A stretch of 64,000 nt of DNA, from assembly GCA_964016885.1 (NCBI GenBank), contig OZ024742.1, positions 216,070,001 through 216,134,000 of the forward strand. Direction: 5' to 3'. Source of the stretch: Eledone cirrhosa (lineage: Eukaryota). Shown here piece after piece: positions 3,352-61,724 of the stretch (positions are counted from its first letter, which is position 1; each line of letters begins with the position of its first letter). A program made the translations under genes and the position numbers. The notes under the pieces were generated by a model. The model saw nothing but the letters and a program-made list of their open reading frames with translations, was not told the DNA's origin and ran no database searches.

Positions 3352-4971
3352 ATATATTTGAAGACTAAAATCCAAAGAGCGCTCAATAACGATGAATATA
3401 TATCAGATATATAAGAACCGAAGAGCAAATATTTATTAGAATAACAGATTAAAGTTTAAACAAAGAATCGCTGCATTCACCCTTATCGGGATCTTCTGAA
3501 ACTAAAGAAGTCAATCTGTGAACGCAGAAGTAAATATTTCAAAAAACGTTACAACCGAAGGAAGACAGAAAGACAATACTTTGGTTCGTGCAAACGTTCC
3601 CTGGCAAAGAACGGAAAAAACAAAACAAAATCAAAGAAGATAATTATTTGGTTCGGTGAAAACAATTACACGGAAAGACAAAACCAAGTTTATGGTATAA
3701 ATGAAGTCGTAGACTAATATTCTATTAGGTGGTTCATAGAGACGTTCTCTGGCAATGAACGAAAAAAACGAAGATAATACGTCATTAAGTGGAACGTGGA
3801 GAACAATTGCCTGCAAAGACAAAACCACGTAAATGGTATAACTGAAGTCGTAGACTAAAATTCTAACTAGGAAACCGAATGATTCTCGGCTTCAGAGTTA
3901 AGAATAAAGTAAATAAAATACAGAGGTAATTGAAATTAAATATATACATCGCATCCATATACGTACATACACAAGCATACGCAATAGAAAAAAAAACACG
4001 CACGCACATTCAGAACCCACGCAACGCCAGTACCCGCACACATACGAATGTATACAGCAAATACACATAAAAATATATATACAAATATATATATATATGT
4101 GAGTGTGTGTGTGTGTATACATAATTAAATAAACGTATAAAATATACACAAAAAAATACGTATATAACGCGCGCGCACACATACCTACATGTAAATACAC
4201 ATATGTTCGCGGACGACGTCAACCAAAACACAAAGTAAACATATACCAACGCCCTACATACGTACCAACCCGCATACTCACACAGACGCAAAACTCATGT
4301 ATACACATAACCAAATGCACATGTACCAAGATATATAATATATACGCCATAACATATACAAACAAATATACGTACGAGAAAGTATATGTACCTTCACAAA
4401 ACATACAGGTAATATATACTTACCTATACAAATAAATAATGATAAACAGAACATATACTTAACTACCACATCAAGACGTAAAATATCTGGCTATAGTTCG
4501 TACTATCCGTTAGGGTATAAGGTGGGGCTGTAATACAGGAAAGTTTTGTGCAATTTATGTTTACAAGCCGAAATTGCCTCATATTCTTTGTTTAAGATGT
4601 TGTCTTTGGAGTAGAGTATTTCCAGGGCCTCAGCAGCGCAGAGGTCACATGGTCTTTTATTTCCGTTATACGATCTAGCCCAAGCTAGGATCTCCCAGTG
4701 TAACTTATATTGACTGTGGTCGTCTTTTAGGTTCCGGATATAAGCTGAAAGTGACGTCATATTCCTTTTTAAAGTGTTCAGAAAAGAATGGGTATGCATG
4801 TAAAGACGCTGCTTGAATCTATTGGCGGTTAATCCTATGTAGACCCTACGGGACGTGGGTGTTTCAACCTTACATTTGTAGACAATATTACTAGAGAGGC
4901 ATTTCCCGGATAGGGGGCAGTCAACCCGATTCCTACAATTACAGTTAGTACTAGCTACAGGGTTGCATGTT
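3352..4971 (-). mobile_element. 5'-truncated Penelope-like element, family A (GIY-YIG C-terminus, 3' UTR and pLTR)
   Basis: ORF 4503-4799 (TSLSAYIRNLKD...WEIL...CDLCAAEALEI...LNK...CKHK) and the non-coding 3352-4500 are diverged reverse-complement copies of 60178-61646. Confidence 0.9.
3445..3518 (-). ncRNA. Family A hammerhead ribozyme, decayed copy
   Basis: agttt-CAGAAGA-tcccgataagggt-GAAT-gca...tgt-TT-aaact; GAAA is mutated to GAAT. Confidence 0.55.
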
Positions 4972-21529: not shown

Positions 21530-22885
21530 AAAGTTTTGGAAGGAGTGCCGGGAGCGGTGCTGGCACAACGCGAACACTTCCGATTTTTTATTAAGGAGGT
21601 TATGGTTTGAGAAGATTATAGTATGGGTCTCTAGTAGACAGAGGTTACAGATTTATTAGGTAGTTTGTACGGTGCCGCCTTACATATCACTTCCCATTTA
21701 AGTGTATAAGATCTATTTTTAGTTTTTAGAATGTGTATGTAGCTAGATAGTGAAGTGGAGTTGGCTAGACTGTGATTTTGAAAGAATGGAGGTGTGAATT
21801 GTATCTGGTTTTGAAGCAGTTTGAAGCAGAGCCTATATATGTTTCAGAAGAGTTGCTAGTTATGACGGTGCATGAGTATATGATGTCCATGATTAAGCAT
21901 TTTTTATCTAAAGGGCAGGTTCTATTAGATCTACCGTTACAATTATTTTGGATGTTAACCTGCCGGTTATTATGTTGTGTAGAAGTCTGGTTGCTAGTTA
22001 TTGCATTATGGCTATGGGGGTTGTCGCTCTCAGCGTTATTGCTTACACTAGTGTTATTACTATTATTACTATTGATATCAGGGTTTGTAGATATAATGTT
22101 GTTTTGAAGGTTTACCCCCTGCCGTGTTTTAGTTTGTTGGAAATAAGTATTATTTTTTCTTTTATTGCTACTAGCTATGTGGTATGCTATGTTAGGCGTG
22201 GTACAGTAGGAGATTTTTATTGTATTTTTTTTATAAGACTATGGTACTTGTGGCCAGATGGGAAGTTTTTTATCCAGGAGTGAGAAGAAAGCGTTATGTA
22301 GGTTGTTAGAGACGTTTAGATTGAAAGGAGGGTTGAAAAATGTTTATTTCTTCTATTTTTGTTTTTTATGTCTGGTGAGATGCTTCCGTTTATGGTATTA
22401 TGGTGACTTCTGTGGTGTGGGTTACGTTTGTTGCCACTCTTCGTACTAGTGTGTGTGTGGTTATTATTTTTATTACTATTTTTCCTCATGGACATATTGT
22501 GCGAAATAATGTTGTAACTATGTGTTTTTGTAGGTAGGAATTCGATCTCATTATTATGGCCTGATCTAGCTAATGCCTGATTATAATATTGTGAGTTTTT
22601 GTTAAATATGTTTTCGTCATAAGATGGATTAGAGATTCTATTGGATATTCCCTTAGAGATAGAGTTTAATATTGATCTAGGGTGGTTAGACTTGGTATCT
22701 ACGTAAATCAGTTTTTCGTTAGGTTTATGGAATGGTGTATATATCCTAGAGTCTAGGTAAAGGGTGGCAAATAGGAAGTTAACGTTTTTAGTGTTTTTGT
22801 CTATGGTGATACATAGGTTATAGTTTTTGAAAGTCTTGTGCAAGAGTTTTCTAGTTCTTTCTATATTAATTTTTTTATATATTAA
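21530..22885 (-). pseudogene. PLE RT C-terminus, linker and GIY-YIG endonuclease (frameshifted)
   Basis: ORF 22316-22843 PFHKPNEKLIYVDTKSNHPRSIL...YYNQALARSG, then FFNPPFNL, CPLDKKCL, YIGSASNCFK. Confidence 0.85.
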
Positions 22886-23625
22886 ATGTATGTTTTATGT
22901 ATGTTAGAACAATACATTTAGTTATGCAAATCAGCTAGTTACCGCCCCTTACGCATTAACTCCCCTTAATTACACACATACTTCCTGATAATAAACCGAT
23001 GTAAATTCTCGCAGCAGAAACAACCTGCTCCATAAAATTGGATTAAAGAACACTGAGCCACAATAAGCTAAAATAATTTAATTTAATGCATCAAACATCC
23101 AATACGGAATCTTCGTTAATTATGTGAGGGATGTATAAACTATATATTACATTTCCTGAATATGAAAATTGTGGTGGATACGAAAACCATAACTTTCTTT
23201 TGCTTCTCCTTTTTATTTTTATTTTTCTGCACACATACTTTTTTATTATATACAAAAAATACCTTACCACTACAAGCTCCATAATACTCTTACGTACCCG
23301 TTTAAAGTGCTTCTATTATATGTAACACCCTGCCACACAATAATCATATATAAATGAGACACACGTGCATGCCCCACGTGTAACTAACGCATAAAATAAC
23401 TACTACATCTGACTAACAAACTATCCTCTTGCATTATCTATGTTTACTGCCGAATGTATTCTAATTTTCTTTTAATTTTGCTTTAATTTTAATTTTGATT
23501 TTGATTTTTAATTTGAATTGCTATACAGAAATAATATAATATAATATATGTCACTCCACTATACATCAATATATACATATGTATCTGTATGTCTCTTGCG
23601 TTGGAAAGGAGCTCAATTATGTGTA

Positions 23626-36313: not shown

Positions 36314-37309
36314 AGGAGTGTTCGTGTGTGTGTATATATCTATATATATATGTGTGTGTGCGTGTTCCTGTGTGAGTGTTCGTGTGTGTGTGCGTGTGCG
36401 TGTGCGCGTGTGTGTGTGTAATCCACCGCTGGAATCGGAGACATAGGCCGCGAAACACGATAATCACTGAAAATGAACTCGCAGAGAGAATCCCTTATGG
36501 TTTATTCCCAACCTTCTAGAAATAAATAGTAGTCAGGCTGGTTAGTATACGTGGTATATCTTTCTTCTTCTTTGATGTTATAAAATTCGTATCAATAAAC
36601 TTTCCTGGATATACTCTTATCCCAATCCTGTACATACTTTCTGATTGTCACTTTTCGTTTTTTTCATGTGATACGCGAAGGAACCAACCAGCAAACATCT
36701 CTCCTTTATATCTCTTTTATTTGTTCATTCAACATATTTTTCAGCTAATTCTGTCGTACAATATACATCAGCAATCGTTATCTAATATTTAAAACATATG
36801 AATAGCGGCGATATATGCACCATATCAATCAAAAACGATATGAGAATTGAATAACATACTAAAGCGCCAGTAAGCTTGTTAAGAACCTGCAGACTGAAAT
36901 GTTAATAAATACAACATTTGGCTTGGGTAAACTTTAAGATTTTCTTTCATTGTAAGTTTCTTTTCTACTTCGCTCCTCCTCACCTCTTCCTTAATTCACC
37001 CTAGAGCATGCTACATACAATTGACCATGGTTTTCCTAGATGAAGGCCAGCCACATTTAGGGTTTGACCCTGAGCTTTGATGATGGTAATCGCGAAGCTT
37101 AGTCTCTCTGTTGCTCTAGTAACATTTTTTCTTCAGGAAAATCTAATCTAGCGGCCAGGCTAGGACATTTTGGGTGGCATATCGGCAGTAACAATGACGA
37201 TAAGCCGTCTGTGCTTTCGTGAAATAAAAACGTTTGTTTATATTTTGTTTTGGTGTATGCAAAAGTATCTGTACATGAATAAATGATTATATATATATAT
37301 ATATACATA

Positions 37310-37915
37310 TATATGAAAATTAGAATTGGTGCTCTGAAATAGCGATATATATATGAATGTATATATAGTGTATTTTGCAATACAATGTATGCTTAATTAA
37401 AAGCATTTCGAAGGCCTTACGCCGCTATTCTTTTAGAGTAGTGACAGTCTCACTTACTTTAATTTTCAGCAAACAGGGGAGATAAAGCTGACAGAGCCCT
37501 GTTTCGCACTTTTTGGTGCTTATTAAAGCTAAATGCTTCTAATTAAGCATACAGTGTATCGCAAAATACACTATATATACATTCATATATATATATCGCT
37601 ATTTCAGAGCACCAATTCTAATTTTCAATTTCTGCTTGACCGGCAACCGCTATGTATATTCAGTTCCTGATTATTACTAGAATTCTATAAGAATCAAACA
37701 TTCATGATTTTCAGCAAACAGGCGGAATAGTTAGCTTTGATAAGCACCAAAAAGTGCGAAACAGAGCTCTGTCAGCTTTATCTCCCCTGTTTGCTGAAAA
37801 TTAAAGTAAGTGAGACTGTCACTACTCTAAAAGAATAGCGGCGTAAGGTCTTCGAAATGCTGTTAATTAAGCATACAGTGTATTGCAAAATACACTATAT
37901 ATACATTCATATATA
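37310..37915. mobile_element. pLTR-like inverted-repeat element (family F)
   Basis: 37342-37532 is inverted to 37731-37918, with an internal partial repeat at 37535-37627. Confidence 0.75.
37707..37801 (+). ncRNA. Type I hammerhead with U3:A8 covariant core
   Basis: agct-TTGATAA-gcac(caaaaa)gtgc-GAAA-cagagctctg-TC^agct, with a long distal stem I (ttttcagcaaacagg / cctgtttgctgaaaa). Confidence 0.85.
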
Positions 37916-37919
37916 TATA

Positions 37920-38070
37920 TTAAAATAACAGATTAAAGTTTAAGCAAAGAATCGCTGTTTTCCTCCTTAAATTAAAAAAACTCAATCTGCGAACGCAGAA
38001 ATAAATATTTCGAAAAACGTTGCAACCGAAAGAAAACAGGAAGATGATACTTTGGTTTGTGAAGACGATA
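37920..38070 (-). mobile_element. Family A pLTR fragment with HHR core deleted
   Basis: Matches 3438-3595 but lacks cgggatcttctga. Confidence 0.65.
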
Positions 38071-39484
38071 GGAATGTCGTATAACCGGAAGTGTTGACAT
38101 TTGAAAATCTAAAGAAGTGAATATTTAAATAAAGTCTTTAATCTTTTAACAAAATTCAGTAGACAAAAATTCCCTCATTTTCTTATTTGGAAAAAGTTAC
38201 ATCTATAGTGCAAATTTAGTGCCGTTTGGTCTAGCCGCTTGGGGGAAAGTTTGTTACTTGCATACGGACGTCAGCTTTATAGTATAGATTCCGTTACCGT
38301 AATTTATGGCAACCGAAGATGTCAGTGGGTAGAAAATTAGATCTAACGAAATGTACGTCTTGTACTTTGTTTCATTGACGTGAAATAATAAAGAAACACA
38401 TGAGCTAGTATAAACTGGTGTAACCGCACCCGTAGAGTATATTATCCTCGGAAAGATTTTGTCTTGTTTTTAGTTAGAAAATAATTGATTCTAACTGTAG
38501 CGCAAGACCAGTCATTTGAAGGGAATATTTCATCAGATGAAAAGTAAAGTTAACGTCAGCGAAATTTGGACTCAGGACATAAGATGGCTGAAACACACCA
38601 CAACGTATTTTGTGTGACGCTTTAACCATACTGCCAAATCAAAGTCTTTCTTAGATTAGTAACAATGCCAACACTAGTAATTACAGTAATAAATAGATAA
38701 ATAGTTTACTGAAATATTGTGATTTCTTCACAGGCAAAGGAAAAATTGTGTTAGCACATGAGAGGTACAGACACGTAAATAAATATACACATGTGCTCGC
38801 ACATACACACATACATACAAATACACGCACAAACACAAAGTGCACAGACAGGACACGCTGGTACCTATACTCACTAACACGACAGCACAATCTTACGCAA
38901 GTGGAATAGTGCAATAATTCAACCCGCAGTACTATAGAAATGTCTAATACAAAAAGATGTATACTTTCTTTTCCTTTAATTTTTTTCTTTCTGAGCTATT
39001 ACTCTTAAACAAACGAATCAAACAAAACACGACAAAAAAATTCATAAGCAGAAATGTAATTTAAATAAAATGCGGAATTGAAAAGAAAAGAAATACAAAT
39101 ACAAATAGTAAATAAAAGAGAATCAAATCAAATTTCAACTAAATTATCTTGTCAATGATTGAAATACTTAGAAAACAAGGGATAGCAATAAAGTTGAATA
39201 AAACCACTACTACTCTCTTGCAGACGTAATTTTTAAAAATATTTAGTTTCTCCAATTGTTTCCATGACTCTAGTTCAAAATAACATGGAAGGAGAATGAT
39301 TAAATATATAACTATGTGCAGATAGATAAATGAATAATTGTTATATAGAAAGAAGATGAATACAGCGCTTTATTTGTTTGTTTGATTTGAGGGTTGGTTA
39401 GCTAACAGTAAGTATGGCCGGATAAACAAAGGATCTAAAATACAATTAAGTATTATAGGGAGTTTGCCTGGTGATTATATGTGT

Positions 39485-59112: not shown

Positions 59113-60641
59113 TAACCCTACGAATCCGATTTAGGTAGACTTAGTAAAACGATTCTTGATAGAATTATACCTGAAATTAGAAGTCTGGCCCCTCTTGCAC
59201 TGTGGAACAATTCTTTCGCGGTGATTGATTGGTTCAACGGCATATGTAACAAGGAACATTGCCGTTTTATCCAATTTGACATCAACAATTACTACTCCTC
59301 CATCACTTTACCACTTCTCCTTAGAGCTATCAATTTCGCTAAAACACTCACAGTGGTTAAGGATTTCGAAGTTGATGTCATCCTCAATGCCCGTAAGTCG
59401 GTGATTAATTTCGACGACTCTATTTGGATTAAAAAATCCAATAGTACCCCATTCGACGTGAGTATGGGCGTCAGCAATTCTGCGGAGGTTACTGATCTTA
59501 TCGGCCTTTTCCTTCTTTTCTCTCCCAAGGACGAATTCCCCAACGCGGGCGGTGGTTTGTACAGTGATGATGGTCTTTTGACCATGACTAAGTGCGGACC
59601 TCGTGCTTGCGACAGGTTCAGAAAATAACTCACAGCCTTCTTTAGCGGCTTCAACCTCTCTATACAGGTTGAGGCCAATCTCTCGGTCGTTAATTACCTC
59701 GACGTTGCCCTCAATTTATTGAATGGGTTGTATTACCCGTATAGAATGCCGAATGATACGCTTAATTACATAAGTAAGCATTCCAACCATCCTGCCAGCA
59801 TAACCAAGAACCTGGTAAGAAACGTTTCGTTGAGGCATTCCCGTCTATCTACTAACGAGCATATTTTCAACGACCATTCCACTTATTACAATGAAGCTCT
59901 TGCTCGGAGTGGATTTGTCGATAAGGTAGCATATACAGAATACGAAAATAGACCTAGAAGAAATAGATCCCGTCGTATTTGTTGGTATAACCCACCATAT
60001 AATATGGAGGTGGCCACACCATTAGCTAAGATATTTCTTTCCCTTATTACGAAGCATTTTCCCGCAACACATAAATATAGTAAAATGTTTAATAGAAATA
60101 CTATTTCTTACTCTACGACTCCTAACCTTGCACATAACATCACAGCTTCAAATTTAGCTAAACTACCTAGCCGTAGGAACACGTGCAACCCTGTAGTTAG
60201 TACTAACTGTAATTGTAGGAATCGGGTTATTTGCCCCCTATCCGGGAAATGCCTCTCTAGTAACATCGTCTACAAACGTAAGGTTGAAACACCCACGTCC
60301 CGTAGGGCCTACATAGGGTTAACCGCCAATAGATTCAAGCAGCGTCTTTACATGCATACCCATTATTTTCGTTACCCTCTAAGAAGGAATATGACGTCAC
60401 TTTCAGCTTATATCTAAAAGACAACCACACCCAATATAAGTTACACTGGGAGATCCTAGCTTGGGCTAGATCGTATAACGGAAATAAAAGACCATGTGAC
60501 CTCTGCGCCGCTGAGGCCCTGGAAATACTCTACGCCACAGACCACATCTTAAACAAAACATCTGAGGCAATTTCGGCTTGTAAACATAAATTGCACAAAA
60601 CTTTCCTGTATTACAGCCCCACGTTATACCCTAACGGATAG
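59113..60641 (+). pseudogene. PLE reverse transcriptase - GIY-YIG endonuclease (interrupted)
   Basis: FIQFDINNYYSSI, FDVSMG, GLYSDDGL, SNHP, WYNPPY, CNCR...CPLSGKCL, IVY...AYIGLT...FKQR...H; contains stops and frameshifts. Confidence 0.92.
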
Positions 60642-61558
60642 TACGATCTATATGTCGATATTTTACGTCTTGATGTGGTAGCTAAGTATATGTTTTGTTC
60701 ATACCATTACTTATTTGGATATATATTACCTGTATGTTTTGTGAAGGTACGTATACCTTCTCGTCCGTATATTTGATTGTATATGTTATGGCGTATAATA
60801 TTATATTTTGTGGTACATAAAGGTTTGGTTATGTGTATACGGGTGTTTTGCGTCTGTGTGATTATGCAGGTTCGTACGTATGTAGGGTGTGTGTATATGT
60901 GTACTTCATGTTTTGGTTGACTTACGTCTCCGAACATTTGTGTATTTATATGTAGGCATGTGTGTGCGCTTGTGATATACGTATTTATTTATTTATATAC
61001 GTTTATTTAATTATTTATTTATTTTTATACACGCATACACACACACATATACTTATATGTGCGTGGTTTTGTATACCTATGGTAAGTGTTTTTGCGTATG
61101 CTTGTGTATGTACGTATTTATATGCGTGTATGTATTTATTTAATTTCTATTACCTTTGTATTGTATTTATTTACTTTGTTCTTAACTCTGAAACGGAGAT
61201 TCATTCGATCTCCTAGTTAGAATTTTAGTCTACGACTTCTGCTATACCATTTACGTGGTTTTGTCTTTGCGTGCACTTGTTCTCCACGCTCCACATATGA
61301 CGTATTTTCTTCGTTTTTTTCGTTCATTGCCAGAGAACGTCTCTATGAACCACCTAAGAGAACATTAGTCTACGACTTCTTTTATACCATAAACATGGTT
61401 CTGTCTTTGCGCGTAATTGTTTTTCACCGCCCCTATTAATGACGTTTTATATTCGTTTTTTCCCGTTCTTTGCCAGGGAACGTTTCCACGAACCAAAGTA
61501 TCGTCTTCCTGTCTTCCTCCGGTTCCAACGTTTTTTTAAATATCCACTTCTGCGTTTA

Positions 61559-61632
61559 CAGATTGACTTTGTTAGTTTCAGAAGATCCCGTTAAGGGTGA
61601 AAGCAGCGATTCTTTGCTTAAACTTTAATCTG
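61559..61632 (+). ncRNA. Family A type I hammerhead (CAGAAGA core)
   Basis: cagatt..agttt-CAGAAGA-t-ccc(gttaa)ggg-t-GAAA-gca(gcgattctt)tgc-TT^aaact..aatctg, with AATAAA downstream. Confidence 0.7.
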
Positions 61633-61724
61633 TTATTTTAATAAATATATATATATATATATATATATTTCGTTTCTGAATTTGGTTAGCAAGATTCTTT
61701 ATCTGAAGTCGTGTGTTGAAACTG

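What the first reader, a model, noticed from the sequence alone, without database searches (positions are those of the whole stretch)
37707..37801. U3:A8 covariant hammerhead with long stem I, paired with a disabled mirror copy
Seen: core TTGATAA, a perfectly palindromic stem III (cagagctctg), a GUC site after 37773 and a ~15-bp distal helix. The inverted copy (37461-37532) reads TTAATAA (G5A). Established: positions 3 and 8 form a tertiary pair, so U3:A8 is compensatory, while G5A inactivates. No ORF is attached, so this looks like a non-autonomous element.
Basis: partly seen in the sequence, partly recalled or inferred. Interest (0 to 1): 0.7.

Follow-up and report, generated by a model that had tools for sequence, protein, structure and literature searches.

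The report
Penelope-moved retrozyme with swapped core pair
This is one decayed copy of an abundant 320-base non-coding repeat that carries a hammerhead self-cutting RNA motif and was likely pasted in by Penelope-type jumping genes; its unusual core base pair is a real, already described swap whose history can be traced in this genome, and the broken mirror copy is most likely ordinary insertion debris.

Summary
The hammerhead is real: type I, U3:A8 core, 12-nt palindromic stem III, 16-bp distal helix. It lies in a 324-nt ORF-less tandem unit, a non-LTR retrozyme family with at least 1,683 ribozyme copies. The insertion has the published Penelope layout: partial tandem, inverted 5'-truncated arm, one-sided 31-nt tail, (TA)n target (52 of 75 places are two-armed). 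Covariation holds between subfamilies, not within one: 61 U:A, 32 C:G, 7 mismatched of 100 listed; a tree shows one C3:G8 to U3:A8 swap. U3:A8 is already in print (Perreault 2011; Cervera 2014). The 'disabled mirror' is not a designed pair: G5A is in 1 of 20 short arms and 2 of 42 long arms, and this arm is truncated inside the ribozyme. New here: the swap and the perfect palindrome arose on the same short branch, and folding predicts that U3 eases a misfold the palindrome creates, leaving a dimer-favoured ribozyme. That is predicted only. No autonomous parent was found; cleavage is untested. The scan already noted the sister 310-nt family and this two-armed layout on other DNA of this genome.

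The parts
37314..37532 (-). Inverted, 5'-truncated arm of the insertion; begins inside the hammerhead and runs outward to the tail
   Evidence: 188-nt arms 97% complementary; shares a private variant with the plus arm seen in no other locus held; sequence
37314..37344 (-). 31-nt one-sided tail beyond the internal (TA) end point
   Evidence: one TA end plus one tail end in 31 of 37 two-armed places with both ends classed
37486..37530 (-). Mirror hammerhead remnant: G5A at 37524, loop III change at 37498, no 5' strand of the distal helix
37531..37920 (+). Direct arm: about 1.2 tandem units (partial tandem), ending in (TA)n
   Evidence: 66-nt direct repeat at spacing 324
37597..37920 (+). One full 324-nt retrozyme unit (subfamily A1), no ORF
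37707..37722 (+). 5' strand of the 16-bp distal extension of stem I (pairs with 37786-37801)
   Evidence: 16 of 16 paired; 8 of 15 pairs show double changes across subfamilies
37733..37777 (+). Type I hammerhead: U3 37737, G5 37739, A8 37742, stem II 37744-37757, GAAA 37758-37761, C17 37773
   Evidence: 3:8 pair U:A in 15, C:G in 11, unpaired in 1 of 27 aligned units
37761..37772 (+). Perfect 12-nt palindrome forming stem III; predicted self-duplex -20.1 kcal/mol
37786..37801 (+). 3' strand of the distal helix
37877..37896 (+). Conserved 8-bp hairpin just before the (TA) end point
   Evidence: 99% of cells paired, 2 of 8 pairs with double changes
37287..37313 (.). Left (TA)n target tract
37921..38067 (-). 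Right flank: 3' end of a separate Hydra-type Penelope copy, into whose (TA) tract the element inserted (not part of the unit)
   Evidence: 79% match over 147 nt to 61481-61640

Best explanation
This is a dead-end genomic copy of a non-LTR retrozyme: a 324-nt non-coding unit with a type I hammerhead, likely transcribed as tandem RNA, likely self-cut to unit length, and likely written back into (TA)n tracts by a Penelope-like element's enzymes priming from both ends of the break, which would give the direct arm and the inverted truncated arm. Shown: unit, tandem copies, two-armed layout with one TA end and one tail end, both arms of this insertion from one template lineage, structure kept by compensatory changes, and a single C3:G8 to U3:A8 swap in the family's history. 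Predicted: the palindromic stem III makes the single ribozyme misfold (3-5 kcal/mol off) and favours the double hammerhead in tandem RNA, so cutting would happen mainly in multimers. Inferred: G5A in the mirror arm is neutral decay. This copy has only one whole ribozyme, so it could not release a unit-length RNA, and a read-through transcript is predicted to bury that ribozyme in a 188-bp duplex with the mirror arm.
For: Family: 973 candidates, 40 scored, best other copies at 95-96% identity; 1,683 ribozyme matches, 0 for the reversed control; arrays of 13 or more units (L036/L037). Layout: 52 of 75 distinct places two-armed; 31 of 37 with both ends classed have one TA end and one tail end, as described for Penelope insertions (PMC8557442). 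Structure: 17 of 36 pairs with double changes, 96.2% of cells paired against 34-52% for slid controls. Swap: U:A clade 99/100 nested in C:G rows with the 310-nt family as outgroup; ladder of intermediates. One template: private stretch in both arms, in 1 of the 224 loci held. Folding: double hammerhead 3.4-4.3 kcal/mol above the ensemble against 9.6-12.2 for two single ones.
Against: No autonomous parent found: the two Hydra-type families compared share no sequence with the unit. Nothing here shows transcription, cutting or a circle. Even the double hammerhead is 3-4 kcal/mol above the ensemble minimum, and 8 of 9 predicted Xenopus retrozyme dimers did not cut in vitro (Li 2026). Six of 37 two-armed places break the one-tail rule (4 tail/tail, 2 TA/TA). 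Arms of one insertion are only slightly more alike than arms of different insertions (median 4.4% against 5.7%, p = 0.04 on non-independent pairs). Covariation counts copies, not events; the 3:8 swap is one event.
Confidence: 0.8

Rival explanations
1. The copies are truncated pseudo-LTR remnants of an autonomous Penelope-like element, not an RNA that spreads on its own unit.
For: 5'-truncated Penelope copies often keep only the terminal repeat with its hammerhead (PMC4209133); the ends are Penelope-type; Hydra-type elements with 3' hammerheads exist in this genome.
Against: Whole units follow each other head to tail with no ORF between (L022, L025, L027, L036/L037, L055). In the 52 two-armed places the arms meet at their 5' ends, leaving no room for an ORF. 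The sister 310-nt family forms long pure arrays.
Confidence: 0.1
2. A satellite amplified at the DNA level, with a vestigial ribozyme motif.
For: Some copies are long tandem arrays; copies decay after insertion at similar rates in core and flanks (2.0% against 3.0%).
Against: Dispersed over many chromosomes, fixed 3' ends with variable 5' truncation, inversions and (TA)n targets. Compensatory changes in every helix between subfamilies need selection on the RNA fold while the family spread.
Confidence: 0.06
3. An active ribozyme and a deliberately disabled antisense mirror form a functional on/off pair.
For: The mirror carries G5A, and a read-through transcript is predicted to pair it with the whole plus-strand ribozyme.
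Against: G5A in 1 of 20 short-arm cores and 2 of 42 long-arm cores (C:G subfamily not counted by that script); 2 of the first 100 of 192 and 1 of the first 100 of 240. Inversion points vary from place to place. An antisense arm would block the ribozyme by pairing whether or not it had G5A.
Confidence: 0.04

Closest known systems
Metazoan non-LTR retrozymes (Cervera and de la Pena 2020, PMC7229834, passages and section 14 read; Li, Clavereau and Pollet 2026, 10.64898/2026.07.22.740005, parts 1-3 of 5 read)
   Same: About 300-nt low-GC tandem unit, one type I hammerhead per unit, no ORF, thousands of copies, mostly monomers and short multimers, proposed Penelope dependence; known in a mollusc (mussel).
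   Different: U3:A8 core; 4-bp stem III in a 12-nt palindrome; 16-bp distal helix; two-armed insertions with a one-sided tail, which the parts of those papers read here do not describe. Cutting and circular RNA are shown for coral, mussel and axolotl, not here.
EN+ Penelope-like element insertions, Hydra/Neptune/Naiad type (Craig et al. 2021, PMC8557442, passages read)
   Same: Partial tandem, inverted 5'-truncated copy, 30-40-bp tail at one end, (TA)n target.
   Different: No RT or GIY-YIG frame; tail is 26-31 nt; no parent element identified.
U3-A8 hammerheads of Schistosoma Cercyon Penelope elements (Cervera and de la Pena 2014, PMC4209133, parts 1-2 of 4 read) and natural U3-A8 variants (Perreault et al. 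2011, PMC3088659, passages read)
   Same: Same core swap; about 1,300 hits in Schistosoma; palindromic stem III and dimer cleavage proposed.
   Different: Those are minimal hammerheads without a helix III; here helix III is full and the swap can be placed on a subfamily tree with intermediates.
310-nt two-armed retrozyme family of this same genome (scan notes e1-8668911 and others; L038, L061, L063)
   Same: Homologous along the unit, same ends, same architecture with a 15-bp distal helix.
   Different: C3:G8 core, U.U at the base of stem II, 6-nt palindrome, much younger and far more abundant.

Membership tests
Type I hammerhead ribozyme | Conserved core (3:8 pair, U4 G5 A6 A9, G12 A13 A14 A15.1, U16.1 H17) with three stems, open at stem I | tested here: met
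   3:8 is U:A, a published active variant (PMC3088659)
Type I hammerhead ribozyme | Hammerhead fold is the favoured fold of the single motif | tested here: not met
   4.8 kcal/mol above the ensemble for this copy, 3.2-4.8 for 9 stem-intact copies with U:A and GCAC or GTAC stem II outside the non-palindromic set; secondary-structure model only, tertiary contacts not counted
Type I hammerhead ribozyme | Self-cleavage after position 17 | not testable with these tools
   needs an assay
Non-LTR retrozyme | 150-400-nt unit in tandem, from dimers to multimers | tested here: met
   period 324 here; tandem pairs and an array of 13 or more
Non-LTR retrozyme | One type I hammerhead per unit, GC under 45%, no ORF | tested here: met
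   96 of 262 consensus sites G or C
Non-LTR retrozyme | Two complete ribozymes in tandem at this locus ('active' by Li 2026) | tested here: not met
   one complete ribozyme on the direct arm; met at other loci such as L027 and L055
Non-LTR retrozyme | Expression as linear and circular unit-length RNA | not testable with these tools
   needs RNA data of this organism
Penelope-like element insertion | Partial tandem plus inverted 5'-truncated copy | tested here: met
   52 of 75 places two-armed; this locus
Penelope-like element insertion | Tail of about 30-40 bp at one end; (TA)n target | tested here: met
   31 of 37 places with both ends classed; flanks
Autonomous Penelope-like element | RT plus GIY-YIG ORF | tested here: not met
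   no frame of 120 codons near the element
Non-autonomous derivative of a named Penelope family | Terminal sequence shared with an autonomous family | tested here: inconclusive
   two Hydra-type families compared, no match; other families of the genome not compared

The most novel reading that the evidence does not exclude
The U3:A8 swap was fixed because it partners the perfect stem III palindrome: the palindrome turns a monomer-competent hammerhead into one gated on dimers, but creates a 7-bp misfold with the C3 core, which U3 weakens. The genome would then hold a dated, step-by-step record of epistasis between a ribozyme's catalytic core pair and its folding switch, selected on a mobile RNA.
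Probability: 0.3. Interest if true: 0.6.

Novelty: new member of a known kind. Interest (0 to 1): 0.36.

Why it matters
The locus itself is ordinary. The family is useful: four related subfamilies and their intermediates give natural variants to test how a strictly conserved ribozyme core pair is swapped, and whether dimer gating controls when retrozyme RNA is cut. It also adds an older, U3:A8 branch to the evidence that Penelope enzymes move animal retrozymes, which the papers read here propose from co-occurrence and sequence likeness but do not show directly.

Tried and rejected
Rfam: no match at gathering score in the window. C3:G8 with the window's own stem II: 0 hits, so no covariation inside subfamily A1. 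Public runs: no RNA holder listed; two runs of unknown kind were laid as contigs and say nothing on expression. Autonomous parent: the Hydra-type element at window 59116-61645 (713-714-aa frames in some copies) shares no sequence with the unit and my descriptor found no hammerhead in the 3' end of L100 (the blast part of that output was cut and is not used); a second Hydra-type family with a 3' hammerhead of similar stem II and stem III has no match outside TA-rich bits. Pfam found nothing for the five window frames tried. A-to-I editing scars: A>G exceeds T>C in 81 A1 units (64 against 32) but not once the L037 array is removed (38 against 29, p = 0.54); the excess in 11 A3 units (19 against 3) may be sublineage structure. 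Order of swap and palindrome: one search suggested swap first, but those rows were picked for the non-palindromic loop; one search showed that most intermediates already have the palindrome, so the order is unresolved. A spreading C3:A8 intermediate: 11 copies, compatible with decay of about 500 C:G copies. The first end-classing script mislabelled ends and was replaced. In one search, L025, L146 and L023 gave only one pattern match, L142 was confounded by its inverted arm, and no natural C:G tandem was found to test. Two relevant papers were not held (Przybilski and Hammann 2007; Lunse et al. 2017) and are known here only from reference lists and a review.

Full report
Observation. The motif is as described. 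On the plus strand, 37733-37777 is a type I hammerhead with core TTGATAA (U3 at 37737, A8 at 37742), a 4-bp stem II, GAAA, a 12-nt palindrome forming stem III, and a GUC site ending at 37773; 37707-37722 pairs 16 of 16 with 37786-37801. A strict descriptor gives one hit in the window and a hit in 1 of 200 Markov copies. The mirror reads TTAATAA. Rfam has no match at gathering score.

Anatomy. The ribozyme sits in a 324-nt unit. The insertion is an inverted arm (37314-37532) joined at its 5' end to a direct arm of about 1.2 units (37531-37920), inside a (TA)n tract. The direct arm ends at an internal TA run; the inverted arm runs 31 nt further. The arms differ at 5 of 188 sites and share a private variant found in no other of the 224 loci held, so they come from one template lineage. 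The mirror arm starts inside the ribozyme and lacks the 5' strand of the distal helix. The right flank is the 3' end of a separate Hydra-type Penelope copy. No frame of 120 codons is near.

Family. The genome (3.0 Gb, animal by its repeats; earlier notes call it cephalopod, not tested here) gave 973 candidates, 40 scored, and 1,683 exact matches to a ribozyme pattern with 0 for the reversed control. Of 90 loci examined, 15 were dropped as repeats of the same place; of the 75 left, 52 are two-armed, 22 one-armed and 1 of other layout. Of the 52, 37 had both ends classed: 31 have one TA end and one tail end, 4 two tails, 2 two TA ends. Thirty of these loci were best hits and 60 were pattern hits, so they lean to intact copies. 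Partial tandem, inverted truncated copy, one-sided tail and (TA)n target are the published marks of Penelope-like insertions (PMC8557442, passages). Tandem pairs and an array of 13 or more units exist. A 19-nt motif shared with a 310-nt sister family occurs 21,203 times; that family was already noted by the scan several times.

Covariation. Within the window's subfamily U3:A8 is fixed: 89 of the first 100 listed of 192 read TTGATAA and 11 carry single changes, none C3 with G8 (counted by eye). Across the family the pair covaries: of the first 100 listed of 1,683, 61 are U:A, 32 C:G and 7 mismatched (counted by eye). On 27 aligned units (9 A1, 6 A2, 8 A3, 4 of the 310-nt family, chosen by me), 17 of 36 pairs show double changes, including 8 of 15 in the distal helix and 3 of 4 in stem II; 96.2% of cells pair against 34-52% in slid controls. 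These count copies, not events. A 102-row tree puts all U:A rows in one clade (99/100) nested among C:G rows (bootstrap not settled). Intermediates fill the branch: stem II closes with G-C while the core is still C:G (L206-L208), then U:A appears on a largely ancestral background (L200, L205 and others), then the crown. So the swap happened once, in the spreading lineage. U3:A8 is known to occur naturally and to be active (PMC3088659, passages) and has about 1,300 hits in Schistosoma Penelope elements (PMC4209133, parts 1-2 of 4).

The mirror. G5A abolishes cleavage (PMC4027429, passages), but it is not a feature of inverted arms: 1 of 20 short-arm cores (one of the 20 is probably a false match) and 2 of 42 long-arm cores carry it (that script missed the C:G subfamily), 2 of the first 100 of 192 and 1 of the first 100 of 240. 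G>A is among the commonest changes in these copies, 2.7% per G. The simplest reading is decay.

How it likely works. Tandem copies are transcribed, cut after C17, possibly circularised, and reverse-transcribed in trans by a Penelope enzyme from both ends of a break in (TA)n. Only the genomic footprint is shown. The single ribozyme is predicted to misfold: stem I and the start of the core pair with the palindrome, 4.8 kcal/mol below the hammerhead fold for this copy. In tandem RNA the double hammerhead is favoured over two single ones by 6-8 kcal/mol (two natural tandems and this unit doubled), in line with dimer cleavage proposed for Penelope hammerheads (PMC6765202, passages). In the C:G subfamily, whose loop is not palindromic, the gap is 2.0 and the two forms are close (3.2 against 4.8). 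Putting C:G into the palindromic background raises the single gap by 2.9-3.0 kcal/mol and, in the window's unit, the double gap from 3.4 to 9.3; in the C:G background the same combination leaves the double gap unchanged (3.1 against 3.2), so the effect depends on background. Genome-wide, C3:G8 with the palindromic loop occurs 4 times, while 98 of the first 100 of 870 palindromic matches are U:A. Swap and palindrome fall on the same short branch, but about 6 of 36 diagnostic changes do, so this is suggestive only, and linkage by descent explains the counts as well. Their order is unresolved. This copy has one whole ribozyme, and a read-through transcript would bury it in a duplex with the mirror arm: a dead end.

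Against. No parent element was found among the two Hydra-type families compared. Cutting is untested, and 8 of 9 predicted Xenopus dimers did not cut in vitro (10.64898/2026.07.22.740005, parts 1-3 of 5). Folding energies ignore tertiary contacts.

Novelty. Non-LTR retrozymes, their proposed Penelope origin, the Penelope insertion layout and U3:A8 are all in print. Searches for a cephalopod description and for U3:A8 work found no paper on this family or on coupling between the 3:8 pair and stem III; supplements of PMC4209133 and PMC8557442 were not read and may list such motifs, and two relevant papers were not held. Verdict: new member of a known kind, with one testable extra. Interest 0.36.

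Noticed in passing
window 59116-61645 (+): Broken Hydra-type Penelope copy (RT, CxCx5C linker, GIY-YIG; RWR and DKT motifs read in the fuller copy L100). The family is very abundant and some copies keep 713-714-aa frames, yet my descriptor found no hammerhead in the 3' end of L100, although Craig 2021 calls hammerheads universal in Hydra.
   Followed up: partly
window 21768-22894 (-) and 4506-4970 (-): Two more Penelope remnants, one of a different family (27-40% identity) and one of the same family (88%).
   Followed up: no
L038 1-1265; L063-L078; L084-L090: Young 310-311-nt sister family in long two-armed arrays with 100% identical units; arrays differ from each other in core position 7 and stems.
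   Followed up: partly
L104 3565-3760 (-); L151-L170: Second Hydra-type family with a 3' hammerhead whose stem II base (U.U) and stem III ends resemble those of the retrozymes; ORF pieces follow the end directly in L154 and L165. No match outside the motif.
   Followed up: partly
L020 1230 (+), L111 3242 (+), L125 2629 (+), L137 2186 (+), L140 2518 (+), L042 1073 (+): At least six further hammerhead types lie beside family copies, some after GIY-YIG-like frames; the genome's Penelope ribozyme diversity is large.
   Followed up: no
L036/L037: An array of 13 or more A1 units with 8-12% divergence and the only clear A>G excess among A1 rows; could be an older array or copied from edited RNA.
   Followed up: partly
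window 36800-37290 and 38070-38330: Both flanks are themselves high-depth repeats in the laid contigs; not identified.
   Followed up: no
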